Positions 17,245 through 25,684 of a stretch of 64,000 nt of DNA are shown in pieces. The stretch covers positions 229,073-293,072 of the forward strand of contig CAVQVS010000013.1 of assembly GCA_963717215.1 (NCBI GenBank), written 5' to 3'. Made by a program: the position numbers and the translations under genes. This DNA comes from an uncultured Alphaproteobacteria bacterium (GTDB lineage Bacteria; Pseudomonadota; Alphaproteobacteria; Rhizobiales; Beijerinckiaceae). The notes below the pieces were generated by a model that saw only the letters and a program-made list of their open reading frames with translations, ran no database searches and was not told where the DNA came from. Positions within the stretch are counted from its first letter, which is position 1. Each line of letters starts with the position of its first letter.

Positions 17245-18330
17245 CAACGCGATGCCGAGCATCGCTCGTCATGAGTTCGTAGGGCTTTGCGCCACTCCGA
17301 AGCACCCTGATAGTTACACAACTTGTGATAGTTAAGCGGCAGGAGCTGTCGAAAGGCAGCTTCTGCGCAGGCTCGACCGACGGTCTGAAGTCCGGGGTGC
17401 GGTACGCGACGAATTCTGCGCGGCCTCCGAGAGCTCCGTCCGCGACCGGGTTCAGTTCGGGGGCGGGTGAGGGCAGGAAGATCGGGGTGATGTTTCTGGG
17501 CGGTCGAGCTTGCCCGTCGTATGCCATCCGGCGCGATCGAGCAGCAGGACGGCGTGTGCGCCTTCAGTTACATTGCGTGAGATCTCGTCGAGGTGAAGCT
17601 GCATCATCATGTCGGTGTCTGCATAGGGCAAAGCGAGAGCCGCTCCGACACCGCGAGCAGGACAGATCGCGCCGAACAGATAAGCGTTGTCGTATCGCTG
17701 GTCGGCGGGCTGTGTGGGCCGCGTTCCGCGCCGGGCCTACTGGCGCACGAGGCCGTTCTTCTGGCCGATCCGGGCCTCGTCCTGAAACCAGATCTCGACC
17801 GGCGTCGTCTCGGGGATGCCATCGAGATGAGCCTTCAACGCGCGGGCGAAGTTTTTTGAACGCCTCGACGATCCGCTCATCCTGCGCCGGATGGGGCGGT
17901 CTTGCGCTGATGTGGGAGAAGCCGATCTTCTTCAGAAGCGTCCCGACATAGCGCGCGTGGAAGTCGACGCCGAACCGCTCGGCGATGACCCGCTTGAGAT
18001 CGACACGCCGCCAGCGCACGACGCCGTCTTTCTCGCGCTCCGGGCCAGCCTCGACGATCTGCGCAAGCTCGACCACCTGCTCAGCCGAAAGCCGGGGCTT
18101 CGGGCCTTCCGTCCAGTTATCGAGAAGCCCCTCCGGACCGGAGGCGTTGAAGCGGTGAACCCAGTCGCGAAGCGTCTGACGCTCCATCCCGCCGATCCTC
18201 GCGGCCACCCCTCGGTCCATTCCGTCTCGAACCCCGGCCAAGGACAGAAGCCGTCGGCTCTGGTGACGTCCTTCGACCGGCAGGCGAGCCCACGCAACGC
18301 CGCCGCCAAATAATCCTCTCGTAATCTGAC
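17245..18330 (-). mobile_element. IS630-family insertion sequence, transposase decayed
   Basis: Minus-strand pieces include RQTLRDWVHRFNASGPEGLLDNW, HPAQDERIVEAFKK, ARIGQKNGLVRQ*ARRGTRP (TAG where W is expected) and NITPIFLPSPAPELNPV. They lie in at least three frames. Confidence 0.8.
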
Positions 18331-19180
18331 TGAAGGCATGGCGCTGGAGGATGAGAACGCCAAGCTTAAGCGGATGCTGGCGGACGTCATGCTGGACAAC
18401 GTTGCGCGGAAGGATCTCCTGGGAAAAAAATGGTGACGCCCGCCGCGCATCGGGAGGCTGCGGGATATCTGCAGTCGACCTACGAGATGAGCCCATCGGC
18501 GGGTGCCGGGTGATCCGCACCGACCGAACCAGCGTGCGTAATCACGCCAGGCGGTCGGATGACGGAGCGTTGCGCGAACGCCTGAAGGCCTTGGCCCAGG
18601 AGCGACGGCGCTTCGGCTATCGGCGGCTGCATGTGCTGCTGCGCCGCGAGGGCCATGCGGTCAACAGGAAGCGCGTCCAGCGGATCTACCGCGAGGAGCG
18701 GCTGACCGTGCGGCGCCGCGGCGGGCGCAAGCGGGCGATCGGCACCGAAGGCCGATCGAGACGCCTCTGGCGGCCAACAAGCGCTGGAGTTTAGACTTCG
18801 TCTCCGACCCGATGACGGACGGGCGGCGCTTCCGTATCCTGACCGTGATCGACAACTGCACGCGCGAATGCCTGGCCCTGGTGGCCGACACATCGCTGTC
18901 GGGACGCAGGGTCGCTCGCGAACTCGATGTCATCATCCGCCAACGCGGGCGCCCGGGCGCCATCGTCAGCGACAACGGCACCCAATACACCTTCCAATGC
19001 CATCCTCGGCTGGGCCGACGACACTGGCGTGGACTGGCCCTACATCGCGCCCGGCAAGCCTCAGCAAAACGGCTATAACGAGAGCTTCAACGGCCGGCTG
19101 CGGGACGAGCTGCTAAACGAGACACTCTTCCGATCTCTGCCCCACGCCCGCGGCAGGACCCTCGTTATCGCTGGATGACA
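18330..19180 (+). mobile_element. IS3-family (IS407-like) fragment, truncated at both ends
   Basis: An orfA tail (LEDENAKLKRMLADVMLDNVARKDLLGKKW) is followed by orfB pieces ([75 protein letters not shown]) with frame breaks. Confidence 0.8.
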
Positions 19181-19254
19181 AACGGGGGTCACTTCAAAAC
19201 GAAGTCTAAGTCATTCACGATGCTAATTGACGGCACTCTAAGGGTCTGAAAGTT

Positions 19255-19593
19255 TGGTGCGGGCGGCCGGACTTGAACCGGCACAGGCCTTGCGGCCCTA
19301 CGGATTTTCTTACCAGCTACGGCTTTCGCCGTCTCACATTCGCGAGGTTCGCGACTGTGAGTTTGTGGTCTGGACTATCCCTTCACCGTGACGTTCGCCC
19401 GGTGAGGCGTTCGCTGTAGGTGCTGCCCGTCTAGTCTCTACACCTTCCCGCCGGACGTTCGTCCTGCGGGCTTGGCTCGGGATTGCCACTTGCGAGGTTT
19501 CCCCGACTTTGAGCAGTTCTGCCTCTTCGGTTTCCCGAAGGGCACTCAAATCGCGTTTAAGTCCGTTGCGTCTACCAATTTCGCCACGCCCGC
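19255..19593 (-). tRNA. tRNA-Leu(UAA) interrupted by a group I intron (exons 19559-19593 and 19255-19308)
   Basis: The joined exons give GCGGGCG-UG-GCG-AAAUUGGUAGA-CGC-A-ACGGA-CUUAAAA-UCCGU, then a long variable arm (GGCC-GCAA-GGCC), then GCCGG-UUCAAGU-CCGGC-CGCCCGC-A-CCA. Confidence 0.9.
19309..19558 (-). ncRNA. Group I intron (IC3-like), inserted between U34 and A35
   Basis: P1 pairs ACUU|AA with UUGAGU, giving a U.G pair at the splice site. P10 pairs GAUUU with AAAUC. P2 is CUUCGG-GAAA-CCGAAG. Core strings GGGGAAACC, GAGCCAAG, GAAGGUGUAGAGACUAGACGG and AGGGAUAGUCC are present, and the 3'-terminal base is G. Confidence 0.85.
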
Positions 19594-19639
19594 GTACCGT
19601 TAAATCTTATAGGCTTTGAGCCGGATTCGACCAAGAAGA

Positions 19640-19870
19640 TTATCGCGGATCGCCCTCGGGACGGCGACCGCGTTTTTTAGGGGTTTCCTTTGGTGTTGGC
19701 CGGTCTTTGAGGATCGGAGCCATCTTCGATTTGCGCACATTGATGGCCGAAGCGTCGGGGCTTGTTTTGATGTGGGAGGCGTAATACTTCTGGATCATCT
19801 CGACACTGGTGCGACAGTTTTTCGCGATCTGATAGATGTCGCCCCACCATAAAGCGAAGACAGATGTAGG
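19640..19870 (-). pseudogene. C-terminal stub of a tyrosine recombinase (phage-type integrase)
   Basis: WWGDIYQIAKNCRTSVEMIQKYYASHIKTSPDASAINV matches integrase C-termini. The catalytic core upstream is missing. Confidence 0.6.
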
Positions 19871-19918
19871 TGTGGCGAAGGCTGTAAGCCGTTCGCCGCT
19901 GGCCTTCACTTTATCGGC

Positions 19919-19957
19919 TTCTAAGTCCCTTGCGTCTACCGGTTTCGCCACGTCCGC
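19919..19957 (-). other. Orphan 5' half of a second tRNA-Leu (anticodon-loop CUUAGAA), ends in the anticodon loop
   Basis: GCGGACGUGGCGAAACCGGUAGACGCAAGGGACUUAGAA aligns with the true 5' exon at about 33 of 39 positions. No matching 3' half follows. Confidence 0.6.
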
Positions 19958-19997
19958 ATCGAGCGCGCTTCTTTCACGTTTTGCGTCGAAAATGAAC

Positions 19998-20498
19998 TTA
20001 GCCGCCTTTGTCGTTGGCGATCGGCGGCTGAAAGGCGAGCCCCATATCCCAGGGGAAGTAGATCCATGTGTCCTGGGACACTTCGGTGACGAAGGTGTCG
20101 ACCAGCGGGCGACCTAAGGGTTTTGCGTAGACGGTGGCGAAATGCGCTTTGGGCAACATCTCGCGCACCAATTTGGCGGTGGCGCCGGTGTCGACCAAAT
20201 CGTCAACGATCAGGATCTTCTCTCCGTCATCAAGATTGGAGACTTCGAGAGCGATCGTCTTGAGGACCTTGAGACCGCCCTGTGTCTTGTAGTCGTGATA
20301 GGAGGCGATGCTCACCGTCTCGATCACCCGCACCTCGAGCTCACGCGCAACGATCGCCGCCGGCACGAGACCGCCGCGGGTGATGGCGACGATCGCGTTG
20401 AAGGGCCCTGATGAGGCAAGCCGCCAGGCCAACGCCCGTGCGTCCCTGTGGAACTGGTCCCACGAAACCGGAAATGCCTTGTCACGGGGGGCGTTCAC
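19998..20498 (-). CDS. gpt: Xanthine-guanine phosphoribosyltransferase
   Basis: [19 protein letters not shown]...[15 protein letters not shown] (PRPP-binding motif); 166 aa. Confidence 0.9.
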
Positions 20499-20603
20499 AA
20501 GTGGCTCCTTGGCAAAAGATTCGCCTTCCTAACAAGTGCGATGACCGCGACCCGTAGTCGCTCTCGATTAACATTTTTTACAATGCTGGCTTCGGGTCGG
20601 CGC

Positions 20604-21356
20604 CTAGCGCGTCGCCCCGTCCCTAGACAGTTCCGCGACCATGGCTTCGACGGCGCGACGCGCCGCGGTGACCGCTTCCGCGTCCTTGCCGCGCACTACG
20701 ATCTGATTGCTGAAGCGCCCGTCCTTGAACGACGGATAGGAGCCGATCGCCGCAAGCGGATGGGCTGAGGCGATCGCGCCCAACGCCTCGCCATACAATC
20801 CCTCCGGGAGGCTCCCCGCAGGAACAGTCTCGACAAGCATCACCGCGCCGGTCTTCATCGTCTTGACGGCGAAGTCGAGCATGGCCTGCATGACCGCCGG
20901 GACGCCGGCAAGCACAAACACATTGCCGATGCGAAAGCCCGGCGCTCGGGAGATGGGGTTCTCGATGAGGTCGGCCCCCTTGGGGACGCGCGCCATGCGC
21001 CGGCGCGCAGGCGTGAGATCGCTGGGGGCGTAGCGCTCAAGCATGATGGCGATCGCCCTTGGATCCTCGCCGACAGGCACGCCAAACGCGCGCCCGACCA
21101 AATCTGCGGTGATGTCGTCGTGGGTCGGACCAATTCCTCCCGTCGTGACCACATAATCATAGCGCTCCCTAAGGGCGTTGAGAGCCGCGACGATCTCGTC
21201 CTCGACGTCGGGGACGACCCGCGCTTCCTGGACATCGACGCCGATCTTCGCCAGATATTCGGCGATATAGCCCAGGTTGCGGTCCTTCGTACGCCCCGAG
21301 AGGATTTCGTCGCCGATCACCAGGACGGCGGCGGTTACAGTCCTTTGTCCGCCCAT
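20604..21356 (-). CDS. CinA-N-terminal / MoCF-biosynthesis (molybdopterin-binding) domain protein
   Basis: AAVLVIGDEILSGRTKDRNLGYIAEYL...VVTTGGIGPTHDDITAD. Confidence 0.8.
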   Translation of the reverse strand: MGGQRTVTAAVLVIGDEILSGRTKDRNLGYIAEYLAKIGVDVQEARVVPDVEDEIVAALNALRERYDYVVTTGGIGPTHDDITADLVGRAFGVPVGEDPRAIAIMLERYAPSDLTPARRRMARVPKGADLIENPISRAPGFRIGNVFVLAGVPAVMQAMLDFAVKTMKTGAVMLVETVPAGSLPEGLYGEALGAIASAHPLAAIGSYPSFKDGRFSNQIVVRGKDAEAVTAARRAVEAMVAELSRDGATR

Positions 21357-21522
21357 GCTGGCGTGTTCCCCTGTCGCTGATCCCAGCGGAGCATAGCCGG
21401 CCTCGTGGCCGCGGCAAGTGAACCATCGTTCAAGAAAAAAGGCGCCCTCCCCCGAAGGGAGGCCGCCCAACTCTTTTCCCTTGCGGTCAGGCGGACCGCA
21501 AGGGCCGGACCAGATGACGCCC

Positions 21523-22108
21523 TCAGGCTGCCTTGAACGAAGCGCGTTTTCGATACGCAACCGCGCCGAGGCCAACGAAGCCCAGTATCATCATCGCCCA
21601 GGTCGCCGGCTCAGGCACGCCCGGGGTAGGCGGAGGAACGCCGCCGCCGTCGATCGAGAGCACCGATTTCCCAAGCGTCACGACCCAACCGTCGTTGTTC
21701 GCGTCAATGTGGATCTGCACTTGCAGTCCGGTAGCCACATCAGGGAACAGGCTCATCGGGATGGAAAAGTCGTTGCCGTAATCCCACTCGTCGTTGGCGC
21801 CCGTAAGCGTGCCGAGAACTCGTCGACGAGTCGTAAGCAGAGATTTGATCGACCTCGCCGCAGCAGGAGTCGACGTCAAACGCGCTGACAAAAAGATCCG
21901 CAGTCGTGAAGGGGCCTGCGATCGCGCCGTGTTGCCAACTCCAATCCTGGCCGAAACTCCTGTAGTAAGGAGAATCGTACTTCTGCGCGTCAGTCGGCAC
22001 AAAGTAACCCGTGGGCGCTTGGACGACGTCAGAAAAGCCCGCTGCTTCCACGGCCGACGTTCCCATTAGACCAACGGCGCACGTGGCGCCCAAAAGCAAC
22101 TTCCTCAT
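21523..22108 (-). pseudogene. PEP-CTERM sorting-domain protein, frame broken once
   Basis: The N-terminal part with signal peptide MRKLLLGATCAVGLMGTSAVEA is in ORF 21740..22204. The C-terminal part ending VPEPATWAMMILGFVGLGAVAYRKR is in ORF 21523..22002. The switch is at plus-strand GAACTC 21816-21821. Confidence 0.7.
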
Positions 22109-22455
22109 TTCCAACCTTTTCCCCCGTTTGAATGGCCGAATGACCCGAGTCGCCATGGCTACGGTTGACCCACGGCTGGCGCGATTTGAGCGTTGCCGGG
22201 ACATCTTCGCAATCGGTGAAACTACCCAAGCCGGCGCTGGCTTCGTAGTCAGCAGGAGTAATTAGTAAAACACCTGTTGATCGTGCGACAATCAAAATTT
22301 GAGACGCTGTGTGGCTTGCTTGGCGGGCCATTGCGGGCCTGTCGACCGGAAATCACGGGGGGTTTGCAGGCGAAGCCCACGGTTAGGCCGCTTGTCTTCG
22401 GCGCGAGCCAGCGCAATATGTGTAGAGTTTCAGGAATATCGGTCAAGGAACCCTG

Positions 22456-23286
22456 GTGGTGTCGACGACATTTGTGCTGGCAAACGAAAAGGTTGGCCGC
22501 CGCAGCGGCCAGATCCGTCTGCATGGGTCAGAAGACTTCGCCGCGATGCGGAAGGCCAGCGCGCTGACCGCGGAAGCGCTCGATCTGATCGGTCCGCTCG
22601 TCAAACCGGGGGTCACGACGGCGAGCCTCGACCGGTTCGCGTTCGAATTCGCGCGCGACCACGACGCCTACCCGGCGTCCCTGAACTACCGCGGCTATCG
22701 CAAATCGATCTGCACGTCGATCAATCATGTCGTGTGCCACGGCATTCCTGACGAGAAACCCCTGCGCGACGGCGACATCCTCAATGTCGACGTGACCCTG
22801 ATCGTCGACGGCTGGCATGGGGACGCGAGCCGCATGTTCGTCGCCGGGGAGGCCTCCCGGCGGGCGCAACGGCTGATCGACGTAACCTACGAGGCGATGA
22901 TGCGCGGCATCGAAGCGATCAAGCCCGGCGGGACGACAGGCGACATTGGTTACGCCATTCAGACCTACGCCGAGGCCGAGCGATGTTCGGTCGTGCGCGA
23001 CTTTTGTGGCCACGGACTGGGGAGGCTCTTTCACGACGAGCCGAATATCCTGCATGTTGGCCGAAAAGGGGAAGGCGTGCCCCTTCGCCCCGGCATGTTC
23101 TTCACCGTCGAGCCAATGATCAATCTTGGCGGCTACGGGGTGAAGATTCTCGCAGATGGTTGGACGGCCGTGACGCGCGATCGGTCGCTGTCTGCGCAGT
23201 TCGAGCATACCGTCGGTGTTACGGAGACCGGATGCGAGATTTTCACCCTCTCGCCCACCGGAGCCGATCGCGCGCCGATCCGATGA
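22456..23286 (+). CDS. map: Type I methionine aminopeptidase
   Basis: [34 protein letters not shown] and EHTV motifs. Confidence 0.95.
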
Positions 23287-24104
23287 CCTCGGGAGCCGAT
23301 CGCGACGGCAAGGCTTATCATCCGCGCCGCGCGAGACGCACTCAGCTGCACGAGGCTGGCGGGTCGGCGCTCGCGCAACTTCAACCGCAGTCGCCCTCCA
23401 ATCTCGCGGTCCCCGAAGGCGGTGAAGGCGAAACGCCCCATTATCACGGGCATCGCGAGCGGCTGCGCTCCCGCCTGAGGGAAGCGGGTCAGGCCGCCCT
23501 TGCCGATTATGAACTCCTCGAACTCATTCTTTTTCGCGCGATCCCGCGACGCGATGTGAAGCCTATCGCCAAGAACCTGATCGCCCGTTTCGGCTCCTTC
23601 GGCGAAGTCATCGCGGCCGATTCCGGAAGGCTCGCTGAAATCGAGGGCATGAGCGCCGGCGCCATCTCGGAGTTCAAGGTCGTCGAGGCGGCCGCCCAAC
23701 GCTTCGCGAAGGGCGCGGTCAAGAAGCGGCTGCCGCTTGGCTCGTGGAGCGAGGTGATCGACTATTGCCGCACGTCAATGGCGTTCGAAGGCCGGGAAAG
23801 CTTCCGTATCCTGTTCCTCGACAAGAAGAACGGCCTTATCGCCGACGAGGTTCAGGGGCGAGGCACCGTCGACCACACCCCGGTCTATCCGCGCGAGGTC
23901 ATGCGCCGGGCGCTGGAATTGTCGGCAACCGCGATTGTCCTTGTTCACAACCATCCGTCCGGCGATCCGACGCCATCGACGCAAGACATCAAGATGACGT
24001 TGGACATCATCGCGATCGCCAAATCACTGGGCGTCGCCGTGCATGACCACATCGTCGTCGGACGCAACGGACATGCCTCGCTGAAGGGCATGCGGCTTAT
24101 CTGA
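23283..24104 (+). CDS. radC: RadC-family JAMM-domain protein
   Basis: [10 protein letters not shown]..., LELILF, and [17 protein letters not shown] (JAMM motif). ATG 23283 overlaps the map TGA (ATGA). Confidence 0.9.
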
Positions 24105-25610: not shown

Positions 25611-25684
25611 GCGGGCGTAGTTCAATGGTAGAACGGAAGCTTCCCAAGCTTCATACGAGGGTTCGATTCCCTTCGCCCGCTCCA
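25611..25684 (+). tRNA. tRNA-Gly(CCC)
   Basis: GCGGGCG-UA-GUUC-AAUGGUA-GAAC-G-GAAGC-UUCCCAA-GCUUC-AUAC-GAGGG-UUCGAUU-CCCUU-CGCCCGC-U-CCA. Confidence 0.95.

What the first reader, a model, noticed from the sequence alone, without database searches (positions are those of the whole stretch)
19255..19593. tRNA-Leu(UAA) split by a self-splicing-type group I intron in an alphaproteobacterial background
Two exons (35 nt and 54 nt) join into a textbook class II tRNA-Leu with anticodon UAA. They are separated by 250 nt inserted exactly between U34 and A35.

The intron shows the expected features in the raw sequence:
- The exon end ACUU plus intron AA pairs with an internal guide UUGAGU, giving the U.G wobble at the 5' splice site.
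- The adjacent GAUUU pairs with the 3' exon AAAUC (P10).
- A CUUCGG-GAAA-CCGAAG hairpin follows.
- The strings GGGGAAACC, GAGCCAAG, GAAGGUGUAGAGACUAGACGG and AGGGAUAGUCC match, from memory, the catalytic core of the Azoarcus tRNA-Ile IC3 intron.
- The last intron base is G.

The U34/A35 Leu(UAA) position is the classic cyanobacterial/plastid intron site. The proteobacterial tRNA introns I know of sit in tRNA-Ile(CAU) and tRNA-Arg(CCU). This host/site combination therefore bears on the vertical versus horizontal history of this intron family. No homing-endonuclease ORF is present.
Basis: partly seen in the sequence, partly recalled or inferred. Interest (0 to 1): 0.85.

Follow-up and report, generated by a model that had tools for sequence, protein, structure and literature searches.

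The report
Island-borne tRNA-Leu gene with group I intron
The window really holds a tRNA-Leu(UAA) gene split by a self-splicing-type group I intron, a kind that proves common in non-cyanobacterial bacteria, and here it sits behind an integrase remnant and has replaced the resident intron-free gene.

Summary
On the minus strand, 19593..19255, a 35-nt and a 54-nt exon join into a class II tRNA-Leu(UAA). A 250-nt intron separates them between U34 and A35. The intron reaches the Rfam Intron_gpI threshold (51.6 bits against 50). It threads into a complete P1-P9 fold, which 73 homologues support by covariation.

The claim that this host and site are unusual is not supported. A row-capped scan of species-representative genomes returned 93 non-cyanobacterial tRNA-Leu(UAA) genes with an intron at the same site. 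By record title, 39 of them are Alphaproteobacteria. A 2020 survey already lists this setting as a classical type.

The context is the more interesting part.
- A 99%-identical sister contig, and at least 17 syntenic relatives, carry an intron-less tRNA-Leu(UAA) just after gpt.
- The window keeps only nt 1-36 of that resident gene.
- Next come the first bases of a foreign arm, a frameshifted C-terminal remnant of a tyrosine integrase, and then the different, intron-bearing tRNA gene.
- The same order (orphan 5' half, integrase, intron-bearing tRNA-Leu) recurs in Alphaproteobacteria, Acidobacteriota and Binatia.

So the whole intron-bearing gene most likely arrived on an integrative element. The element's far end, the splicing activity and any role of the intron for the element remain untested.

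The parts
19559..19593 (-). 5' exon of the intron-bearing tRNA-Leu(UAA), nt 1-35, ending at U34 (GCGGGCGUGGCGAAAUUGGUAGACGCAACGGACUU)
   Evidence: ARAGORN with introns allowed; the spliced product folds as class II tRNA-Leu(taa)
19309..19558 (-). Group I intron, 250 nt. Helices: P1 19562-19557/19549-19544; P2 19543-19521 (GAAA loop); P3 19516-19511/19428-19423; P4 19506-19501/19482-19477; P5 19497-19486; P6 19476-19474/19444-19442; P6a 19470-19447; P7 19436-19432/19377-19373; P8 19422-19384; P9.0 19369-19366/19315-19312; P9a 19361-19333; P9b 19332-19319 (GAAA loop); omegaG 19309
   Evidence: Rfam RF00028 51.6 bits, E 3.3e-10; every pair of the hand-threaded fold is canonical; covariation on 74 sequences; z = -5.3
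19255..19308 (-). 3' exon of tRNA-Leu(UAA), starting at A35; long variable arm, T arm, acceptor strand CGCCCGC, A73, encoded CCA
   Evidence: its acceptor and anticodon-stem strands pair with the 5' exon at 19593..19559, not with the orphan half
19594..19639 (-). 46-nt spacer between the integrase stop codon and the tRNA. It holds a weak promoter-like TTGGTC-17-TATAAG. A TATA(A/C/G)(A/G)-type -10 box lies at the same place in homologous loci.
   Evidence: read by eye; the consensus scan found no promoter that meets its criteria
19640..19912 (-). Frameshifted C-terminal remnant (about 85 codons) of a tyrosine integrase (..RTAYSLRHTYICLRF / DIYQIAKNCRTSVEMIQKYYASH..), ending 46 nt before the tRNA
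   Evidence: six-frame translation; tblastn 61-75% identity, E 1e-25, to annotated site-specific integrases on alphaproteobacterial plasmids; colinear at 84.5% with the 3' end of a full-length integrase gene in L192; family matches PHROG phrog_1 'integrase', E 1.4e-24
19913..19921 (-). First 9 nt of the foreign arm that follows the anticodon loop (GAAGCCGAU; L192 has AAAGCCGAU). This is the preserved left junction of the inserted element.
   Evidence: blastn of L192 against the window and a read of the two sequences
19922..19957 (-). Orphan 5' half (nt 1-36, through A35) of the resident, intron-less tRNA-Leu(UAA), starting 40 nt after the gpt stop codon
   Evidence: identical to nt 1-36 of the complete intron-less gene in the 99.2%-identical contig L001, after which homology stops
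19998..20498 (-). gpt (xanthine-guanine phosphoribosyltransferase-like), the conserved upstream neighbour that anchors the locus (radC-map-cinA-gpt-tRNA-Leu)
   Evidence: Pfam Pribosyltran; synteny in L001, L108, L192 and about 25 metagenome contigs
17300..19200 (.). Degenerate insertion sequences directly downstream of the tRNA: IS3-family remnants on the plus strand (about 18300-19200) and IS630-family remnants on the minus strand (about 17300-18520). They may have erased whatever lay beyond the tRNA on the element.
   Evidence: six-frame translations; Pfam HTH_33, HTH_32, HTH_29 and HTH_21. The family names are from my own reading of the motifs.

Best explanation
The region 19593..19255 (minus strand) is a tRNA-Leu(UAA) gene. 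Its anticodon loop is interrupted after U34 by a 250-nt group I intron of the bacterial tRNA (IC3-like) type.

**How it works (inferred from the family).**
1. The precursor folds so that the internal guide UUGAGU pairs with the exon end ACUU, giving a U.G wobble at the splice site.
2. A free guanosine bound in P7 attacks the 5' splice site.
3. The terminal G (19309) then takes the same site, the 3' exon is held by a short P10, and the exons are ligated.
4. The product is an 89-nt tRNA that ends in CCA.

**How the gene got here.** This gene is not the ancestral one at this locus. The lineage's own tRNA-Leu(UAA), which sits just after gpt, has no intron. In the window that resident gene was cut in its anticodon loop by an element encoding a tyrosine integrase. 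The element carried, just behind its integrase gene, a complete intron-bearing tRNA-Leu(UAA) with its own promoter region. Later, about 1.2 kb was deleted (the element's left arm and roughly 350 integrase codons), and insertion sequences landed downstream. That left the element immobile and the imported gene in place.

**Shown:** the gene and intron anatomy, the covariation, the orphan half, the integrase remnant, and the recurrence of the arrangement.
**Inferred:** splicing, integrase-mediated insertion, and that this is now the working tRNA-Leu(UAA).
For: **Intron and tRNA.**
- Rfam hit above the gathering score; ARAGORN call and cloverleaf.
- Full canonical P1-P9 threading.
- 92.7% of pair cells form standard pairs, against 30-42% for slid controls. 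46 of 65 pairs have compensatory changes, including 4 of 6 in the P3 pseudoknot. The U.G pair is present in 74 of 74 sequences.
- z = -5.3.
- 85-86% identity over aligned positions to published seed introns Ncf2.Leu.3Ug, Rur1.Arg.5Ug and Azoarcus Ile2.

**Import.**
- L001 is 99.2% identical over 3.6 kb and has a complete intron-less tRNA-Leu(UAA) 40 nt after gpt. The window has nt 1-36 of it, then unrelated DNA.
- 107 of 120 metagenome contigs with this 5' half are intron-less. They include at least 17 with gpt synteny at Gpt identity of 88% or more.
- The intron-bearing gene is only 86% identical to the resident gene. Its 3' exon pairs with its own 5' exon, not with the orphan: there is a mismatch in both the acceptor stem and the anticodon stem.
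- L192 (Gpt 87%) shows the intact form: gpt, orphan half, full-length integrase, tRNA-Leu(UAA) with a 251-nt intron, then an OLD/AAA_15-like ATPase. It is colinear with window 19907..19255 at 84.5%.
- The same integrase family, or its C-terminal remnant, ends within 400 nt upstream on the same strand in 11 of 93 scan loci and on a Bradyrhizobium conjugative plasmid.
- Host-type orphan 5' halves precede the integrase in L002, L013, L046, L047, L079, L082, L116, L192 and L248.
- The imported tRNAs all carry acceptor GCGGGCG or GCAGGCG, whereas the orphans are host-specific.
Against: - No RNA data or splicing assay exists, and the Rfam score is only 1.6 bits above threshold.
- The element's far end, which should hold the displaced 3' half, was found neither in the window nor in any locus. 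Insertion by site-specific recombination is therefore inferred from one junction only.
- Regions downstream of the tRNA share no ORFs among loci.
- L001 is a metagenome contig that ends 1.6 kb past its tRNA, so a rearrangement on that side cannot be excluded.
- In L082 the orphan and the imported gene share nt 8-35, which needs an extra conversion event under this model.
- The integrase family has no significant Pfam, NCBIfam or PDB sequence match. Its identity rests on PHROG phrog_1, on annotators' names and on the R..K..LRH..Y motifs.
- Whether the genome has another tRNA-Leu(UAA) is unknown.
Confidence: 0.8

Rival explanations
1. The intron-bearing tRNA-Leu(UAA) is the ancestral, vertically inherited gene of this alphaproteobacterial lineage. 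Relatives such as L001 lost the intron precisely. The integrase remnant and the tRNA fragment nearby come from unrelated events.
For: More distant Alphaproteobacteria have an intron-bearing tRNA-Leu(UAA) close to gpt with no integrase beside it. Examples are L108 (57 nt after gpt; Gpt 82%), L120 and Hoeflea L014. So intron-bearing genes in native context do exist in the class.
Against: - Precise intron loss would leave the same exons. Instead the L001 gene and the window's exons differ at 14% of positions, with compensating changes in the acceptor and anticodon stems.
- The orphan half is identical to L001's gene and lies at the same distance from gpt.
- All syntenic relatives with Gpt identity of 88% or more that carry an intact gene are intron-less.
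- L192 shows the intact intermediate.
Confidence: 0.05
2. The gene is a decaying relic of a dead element. The intron or the tRNA no longer works, and leucine UUA decoding depends on another copy elsewhere in the genome.
For: - The integrase is destroyed and insertion sequences have landed next to the gene.
- No consensus promoter was found by the scan.
- The Rfam score is marginal.
Against: - Every helix of the fold is intact in the window sequence.
- All 56 alignment columns that are invariant across 74 sequences are, by definition, kept in the window as well.
- The cloverleaf has no mismatch.
- The resident gene at this locus is destroyed, so a working replacement is needed unless a third copy exists.
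- The remnant-plus-tRNA arrangement is retained independently in L013, L023, L057, L121 and L246.
Confidence: 0.1
3. The mobile unit is only the integrase plus a tRNA 5' part, a minimal element that supplies the 5' half. It inserted into a host gene that already had the intron, so the intron and the 3' exon are native.
For: - The orphan half and the complete gene are always about 1.5 kb apart with only the integrase between them.
- In L250 a Leu(CAA) 5' fragment, the integrase and a complete intron-less tRNA-Leu(CAA) show a 47-nt direct repeat that fits such a unit.
- In L002 the orphan and the 5' exon differ at one base.
- No far end was ever found.
Against: - In the window, L013, L046 and L082 the orphan's acceptor strand does not pair with the present 3' exon.
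- In the window the anticodon stem does not pair either, whereas L001's intact gene is self-consistent.
- Relatives with this 5' half have no intron.
Confidence: 0.1

Closest known systems
[quoted passage not shown]
   Same: Same tRNA, same insertion point (CUU/intron/AAAA), U-1 and omegaG, no ORF, same overall fold, and GAAA loops on P2 and P9.
   Different: Only 68% identical over full length (80% over aligned positions) to the Synechococcus seed. The core reads GUAGAGACU rather than GCAGAGACU. The peripheral P5, P6, P8 and P9 differ. The host is a proteobacterium, and the gene lies on an integrase-linked element.
Non-cyanobacterial Leu.3Ug introns (Williams 2020 seed Ncf2.Leu.3Ug; the 93 loci found here). 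From my own memory, not retrievable in the library: Vepritskiy et al. 2002, J Bacteriol 184:1481, a tRNA-Leu(UAA) intron in a gamma-proteobacterium.
   Same: Same site and same three-way P9 with GCGGCGAAAGCCGU. 85% identical to Ncf2 over aligned positions and 82% over full length to the closest scan locus, L121.
   Different: No locus of the same species was found. This copy has longer P8 and P9a hairpins (250 nt against a median of 233).
Azoarcus sp. BH72 tRNA-Ile(CAU) IC3 intron (crystallised ribozyme)
   Same: The catalytic core strings are shared: 86% identity over 184 aligned nt. P2 and P9 carry GAAA tetraloops, and there is no P5abc.
   Different: A different tRNA and a different position in the anticodon loop (Ile2.5Ug). 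Azoarcus has a shorter P9 and a total of about 205 nt.
tRNA-targeting genomic islands with tyrosine integrases (Islander model, PMC4383910)
   Same: A tyrosine integrase next to a tRNA gene, a breakpoint in the anticodon loop, and a displaced tRNA fragment that marks one end.
   Different: The displaced piece is the 5' half and lies upstream of the integrase. The target is not regenerated by an att-borne fragment. A complete second gene, with an intron, lies behind the integrase. The other end was not found.
Transfer of a whole tRNA-Leu(UAA) locus with its intron (Rudi et al. 2002, J Bacteriol 184:666, as cited in PMC3984707)
   Same: Exons and intron move together rather than the intron homing alone.
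   Different: That case is within cyanobacteria and was inferred from phylogeny. Here a physical scar (orphan half plus integrase) is preserved.

Membership tests
Group I intron (Rfam RF00028) | Covariance-model score at or above the curated gathering score | tested here: met
   51.6 bits against 50, E 3.3e-10, model positions 1-253. The margin is small; related copies in L192, L245 and L246 fall below it.
Group I intron (Rfam RF00028) | P1 formed by the exon end and an internal guide, with a U.G wobble at the 5' splice site | tested here: met
   ACUUAA/UUGAGU in the window. The U.G pair is present in 74 of 74 sequences, and neighbouring pairs covary.
Group I intron (Rfam RF00028) | Terminal G (omegaG) before the 3' splice site, and a P10 with the 3' exon | tested here: met
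   G at 19309. U-1/omegaG in all 73 ARAGORN-split homologues and in 93 after re-splitting. P10 is 3 bp in the contiguous register, or 5 bp shifted by one.
Group I intron (Rfam RF00028) | P3-P8 and P4-P6 domains with the P3/P7 pseudoknot, supported by compensatory changes | tested here: met
   P3 99.8%, P4 100%, P6 100%, P7 100% and P8 99.3% of cells paired. 46 of 65 pairs have changes on both sides. Slid controls give 30-42%. P7 variation was limited by the search pattern.
Group I intron (Rfam RF00028) | Guanosine-dependent self-splicing | not testable with these tools
   Needs in vitro transcription with GTP and Mg2+, or RNA-seq across the exon junction.
Subgroup IC3 (bacterial tRNA introns) | Sequence and helix pattern of the IC3 tRNA introns: P2 present, no P2.1, no P5abc, GAAA loops on P2 and P9 | tested here: met
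   85-86% identity over aligned positions to the Azoarcus, Rur1 and Ncf2 seeds; helix inventory. Williams 2020 states that the classical bacterial tRNA introns are all marked IC3. No formal subgroup classifier was run.
Class II tRNA-Leu(UAA) | Cloverleaf with a long variable arm, anticodon UAA, and A73 | tested here: met
   ARAGORN on the spliced sequence: tRNA-Leu(taa), 89 nt, all stems paired, CCA encoded.
Homing-endonuclease-mobile group I intron | An endonuclease ORF inside the intron | tested here: not met
   The intron is 250 nt. The largest overlapping ORF is 71 aa across the core, with no Pfam match.
tRNA-integrated genomic island (Islander type) | A tyrosine integrase gene at the tRNA-proximal end | tested here: met
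   A remnant in the window and full-length genes in L192, L002, L046, L047, L079 and L116. PHROG phrog_1 E 1.4e-24. No significant Pfam, NCBIfam or PDB match.
tRNA-integrated genomic island (Islander type) | Target gene regenerated by an island-borne fragment, with the displaced fragment marking the other end | tested here: not met
   The displaced piece is a 5' half beside the integrase. No regenerated hybrid and no displaced 3' half were found in the window or the loci. A separate complete gene replaces the target instead.

The most novel reading that the evidence does not exclude
Genomic islands or ICEs with this integrase family are a vehicle that spreads endonuclease-free tRNA-Leu(UAA) group I introns between bacterial phyla. 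They insert into the anticodon loop of the resident intron-less gene and destroy it, making the cell depend on the island's own intron-bearing copy. The intron may be retained because it splits the anticodon stem-loop that the integrase uses as its target. That would protect the cargo gene from the element's own recombinase, much as introns protect alleles from homing endonucleases.
Probability: 0.3. Interest if true: 0.8.

Novelty: new variant of a known kind. Interest (0 to 1): 0.5.

Why it matters
The intron itself is one more member of a well-known family, and its presence in an alphaproteobacterium is ordinary.

What matters is the scar around it. How bacterial tRNA introns without homing endonucleases come to have patchy, cross-phylum distributions has been argued for decades from phylogenies alone. 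This locus, its intact counterpart L192 and about a dozen similar loci show a physical route:
- A whole intron-bearing tRNA gene rides behind a tyrosine integrase.
- It supplants the resident intron-less gene.
- The imported genes keep the same acceptor-stem type (GCGGGCG, or GCAGGCG in one locus) in Alphaproteobacteria, Acidobacteriota and Binatia. The orphaned resident halves stay host-specific.

If this is general, it makes the vertical-versus-horizontal question testable by mapping islands.

There is also a practical point. Default ARAGORN and the Rfam gathering threshold miss such genes. A related copy sits unannotated in the aac(3)-IId resistance module of 12% of complete E. coli genomes.

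Tried and rejected
- **Detection tools.** ARAGORN default mode finds nothing at the locus. The promoter scan found no sigma-70 consensus site near the tRNA.
- **Integrase identity.** Pfam on the 90-aa remnant gave nothing. For the full-length integrase, Pfam gave only a sub-threshold Phage_int_SAM_3 hit, NCBIfam gave nothing, and PDB sequence and profile searches gave nothing relevant. PHROGs did recognise it.
- **Literature.** Searches for an integrase link to tRNA group I introns found no paper describing it. The 2002 gamma-proteobacterial report could not be retrieved. Absence from this library does not prove novelty.
- **The element's far end.**
  - A degenerate T-arm/acceptor pattern matched only the intron-bearing gene itself.
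  - T-loop motifs and acceptor complements downstream in 12 loci gave nothing.
  - Downstream ORFs are not shared among loci.
- **A recombination site inside the integrase gene.** I considered that the window's deletion arose at a pseudo-att site at the GLK codons. I rejected this because L192 shows that the 9 nt after the loop belong to the element's arm, so it is a plain internal deletion.
- **The 3' exon as host DNA.** I considered that the element ends at the 3' splice junction. I rejected this because of the stem mismatches with the orphan.
- **The intron as an obligatory partner of this integrase family.** I rejected this: L250 has an intron-less tRNA-Leu(CAA), L248 has no tRNA, and L249 and L124 have the standard order of tRNA then integrase.
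- **Phages.** They hold only weak partial matches to group I cores.
Full report
**1. What is at the coordinates**

The feature lies on the minus strand.
- Read 5' to 3', 19593..19559 is GCGGGCGUGGCGAAAUUGGUAGACGCAACGGACUU.
- 19558..19309 is a 250-nt insert that starts AAACGCG and ends GGUAAG.
- 19308..19255 is AAAAUCCGUAGGGCCGCAAGGCCUGUGCCGGUUCAAGUCCGGCCGCCCGCACCA.

ARAGORN in default mode reports only a tRNA-Gly elsewhere in the window. With introns allowed it calls exactly this split. The joined exons fold into an 89-nt class II tRNA-Leu(UAA) with every stem paired and CCA encoded.

**2. Is it a group I intron**

- Rfam's Intron_gpI model matches 19568..19350 on the minus strand over its whole length. 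The score is 51.6 bits against a gathering score of 50, E 3.3e-10.
- I threaded the sequence by hand into P1, P2, P3, P4, P5, P6/6a, P7, P8, P9.0, P9a and P9b. Every proposed pair is canonical.
- The minimum free energy is -105 kcal/mol, 5.3 standard deviations below shuffles.
- The strongest test used relatives. I aligned 73 homologous tRNA-Leu(UAA) introns from other genomes with the window (A1) and counted pairs on the hand-drawn structure.
  - 92.7% of cells are standard pairs, against 30-42% when partners are slid by one to three columns.
  - 46 of 65 pairs carry changes on both sides.
  - No shuffle of 500 reaches the observed values.
  - The splice-site U.G pair is present in all 74 sequences.
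  - The P3 pseudoknot strand pairs in 99.8% of cells, with four of six pairs compensated.
  - P7 could vary only within what my search pattern allowed, so it says little.
- The intron is 85-86% identical over aligned positions to published seed introns: Ncf2.Leu.3Ug, Rur1.Arg.5Ug and the Azoarcus tRNA-Ile intron.
Both registers occur in the family.
- No endonuclease ORF is present.
- Splicing itself is inferred, not shown.

**3. Is the host and site combination unusual**

No.
- One degenerate pattern was built from the core, J8/7 and the start of the 3' exon, using GUAGAG rather than the usual cyanobacterial GCAGAG.
- ARAGORN with introns, followed by re-splitting of a few calls that were off by one base, shows 93 of the 120 to be tRNA-Leu(UAA) with a U-1/omegaG intron at 34/35. 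Intron length runs 202-309 nt, median 233.
- By record title, 39 hosts are Alphaproteobacteria. They include Phenylobacterium, Brevundimonas, Bradyrhizobium, Hoeflea, Rhodobacter, Azospirillum, Sphingomonas, Novosphingobium and Micavibrio.
- The rest are Beta- and Gammaproteobacteria, Acidobacteriota, Bacteroidota, Chloroflexota, Binatia and others.
- Five more loci are tRNA-Leu(CAA) with C at -1, the Leu.3Cg type of Williams 2020.
- That survey (bioRxiv 10.1101/2020.01.27.920355) found 5292 intron-split tRNA genes in about 80,000 genomes and treats Leu.3Ug as one of four classical settings.

So the intron is a new member of a known and common kind.

**4. Background organism**

The source is not named.
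- Gpt, CinA-like and Map proteins of the window have their best matches among the fetched loci in alphaproteobacterial MAGs (Gpt 82-85%) and in Hoeflea (74%).
- The integrase remnant matches only alphaproteobacterial plasmids.
- The exact Gpt protein occurs on an ENA metagenome contig.

I accept "alphaproteobacterial" without resolving an order.

**5. The locus carries a scar**

- The ENA contig (L001) is 99.2% identical to window 23490..19916, and there homology stops.
- In L001 a complete, intron-less tRNA-Leu(UAA) starts 40 nt after gpt.
- The window has the first 36 nt of that gene, identical, at 19957..19922. This covers the 5' half through A35.
- What follows is GAAGCCGAU and then an open frame with a frameshift. 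It reads ..RTAYSLRHTYICLRF / DIYQIAKNCRTSVEMIQKYYASH.. and stops at 19640, 46 nt before the intron-bearing tRNA.
- This peptide matches the C-termini of annotated site-specific integrases on Asticcacaulis, Rhizobium and Novosphingobium plasmids at 61-75% identity, E 1e-25.
- The full-length family matches PHROG phrog_1 "integrase" at E 1.4e-24. It has invariant R (NTGLRPDE), K, LRH and a C-terminal Y. It has no significant Pfam, NCBIfam or PDB sequence match.
- Downstream of the tRNA lie IS3-family and IS630-family remnants.

**6. Which gene is native**

- The intron-bearing gene's exons are only 86% identical to the L001 gene. Its 3' exon pairs with its own 5' exon (acceptor GCGGGCG/CGCCCGC, anticodon stem ACGGA/UCCGU).
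- It does not pair with the orphan (GCGGACG, AGGGA), whereas L001's gene is self-consistent.
- A metagenome scan with a 28-mer from the orphan, again capped at 120, gave 107 contigs with a complete intron-less gene. At least 17 of them keep radC-map-cinA-gpt synteny with Gpt 88-96% identical to the window.
- Twelve contigs have the 5' half followed by foreign DNA of several kinds. The anticodon loop of this gene is therefore an insertion hot spot.
- One of these, L192 (Gpt 87%), shows the intact arrangement:
  - gpt, then the orphan half ending CUUAAAA, then GCCGAU and an A-rich arm;
  - a full-length integrase gene;
  - a tRNA-Leu(UAA) with a 251-nt intron;
  - an AAA_15/DUF2813 (OLD-like) ATPase gene.
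- Window 19907..19255 is colinear with the last third of that integrase gene, the spacer and the tRNA at 84.5% identity. The window therefore equals an L192-type insertion minus about 1165 bp.

**7. The arrangement recurs**

- tblastn with two full-length integrases against the 120 genome loci finds the family, or its C-terminal remnant, ending within 400 nt upstream on the same strand of 11 of the 93 intron-bearing tRNA-Leu(UAA) genes.
- A Bradyrhizobium conjugative plasmid has the same order next to trb genes.
- These loci include six of the nine introns most similar to the window's: L121, L023, L013, L057, L118 and L116.
- Orphan 5' halves that end just after the anticodon loop precede the integrase in L002, L013, L046, L047, L079, L082, L116, L192 and L248.
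- The orphans have host-specific acceptor stems, for example GCCCGGA in Acidobacteriota. The gene behind the integrase always has GCGGGCG, or GCAGGCG in L116.
- That pattern is what transfer of the whole gene across phyla predicts.
- L013, like the window, has lost most of the integrase gene through an independent deletion.

**8. What remains open**

- I never found the other end of the element.
  - The displaced 3' half of the resident gene is absent from the window and from the few kilobases available in other loci.
  - Downstream ORFs are not shared.
  - The trb genes in L246 and the ATPase in L192 suggest islands or ICEs much longer than the fetched pieces.
- A minimal element, consisting of the integrase plus a supplied 5' half, fits L250. 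It does not fit the window, because of the stem mismatches.
- An unbiased sample of the integrase family from IMG/VR shows that the intron is not obligatory: L250 has an intron-less tRNA-Leu(CAA), L248 has no tRNA, and L249 has the standard order of tRNA then integrase.
- The attractive idea that the intron shields the cargo gene's anticodon stem-loop from the element's own integrase is therefore only a hypothesis.
- Two literature searches found no description of an integrase link to tRNA group I introns. That is weak evidence of novelty.

**9. Verdict**

The interpretation as a group I intron in tRNA-Leu(UAA) is supported. The claim of an unusual host and site is not. The added value is the evidence that here the intron came in with a complete tRNA gene on an integrase-bearing element that replaced an intron-less resident gene.

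Noticed in passing
L245 4001-4297; L247 5001-5299 (E. coli plasmids): A complete tRNA-Leu(UAA)-like gene with a group I intron of about 210-220 nt lies unannotated between tmrB/aac(3)-IId and a DUF3883 gene in a resistance module. It matches 1278 PLSDB plasmids (Escherichia, Klebsiella, Salmonella, Acinetobacter) and 636 of 5426 complete E. coli genomes. It is 95% identical to a copy in a Bradyrhizobiaceae MAG, which suggests an alphaproteobacterial origin for that stretch.
   Followed up: partly
L245, L246, L192: The Rfam gathering threshold reports no Intron_gpI hit for these clear homologues, and default ARAGORN misses the window's gene. Such tRNA genes are likely to be under-annotated, leaving genomes apparently without tRNA-Leu(UAA).
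   Followed up: partly
L182, L150, L208; L148, L158; L133; L236; L222 (metagenome contigs): The same resident tRNA-Leu(UAA) 5' half is followed, right after the anticodon loop, by at least four other unrelated sequences. In L182 ARAGORN reads a 457-nt insert at loop position 39, followed by a 3' half. The anticodon loop of this gene looks like a hot spot for several elements.
   Followed up: no
window 19470-19447, 19415-19385, 19355-19339 (minus strand): The motif CGAAC(G/C) recurs in four peripheral hairpins of the intron: GGACGAACGUCC in P6a, GCGAACGC and GGCGAACGUC in P8, and CGCGAACCUCGCG in P9a. This gives GAAC-type loops. It could be chance, or a repeated small structural module.
   Followed up: no
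L009, L026, L029, L056, L058: tRNA-Leu(CAA) genes in Bordetella, Achromobacter and Steroidobacteraceae have an intron at the same position and C rather than U at -1. This matches the Leu.3Cg class, whose splicing Williams 2020 flagged as untested.
   Followed up: no
window 17300-19200: Nested, frameshifted IS3-family (plus strand) and IS630-family (minus strand) transposase remnants fill the gap between the tRNA and a radical SAM gene that overlaps dnaN. The core genes dnaN and PBP1A lie just beyond, and L001's sequence past its tRNA is absent from the window. A rearrangement at this point is therefore likely.
   Followed up: partly
L001 3584-5185: The sister contig ends 1.6 kb after its intron-less tRNA, in fragmented Peripla_BP_6 ORFs. 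L248 also has a Peripla_BP_6-like ORF after its integrase. This is possibly coincidence.
   Followed up: no
window 19650-19677 (+): A terminator-like hairpin with a T run lies on the plus strand inside the integrase remnant's 3' end, pointing towards gpt. The scan's count is no higher than in shuffles.
   Followed up: no
window 25611-25684 (+): tRNA-Gly(CCC), the only other RNA gene detected in the window.
   Followed up: no
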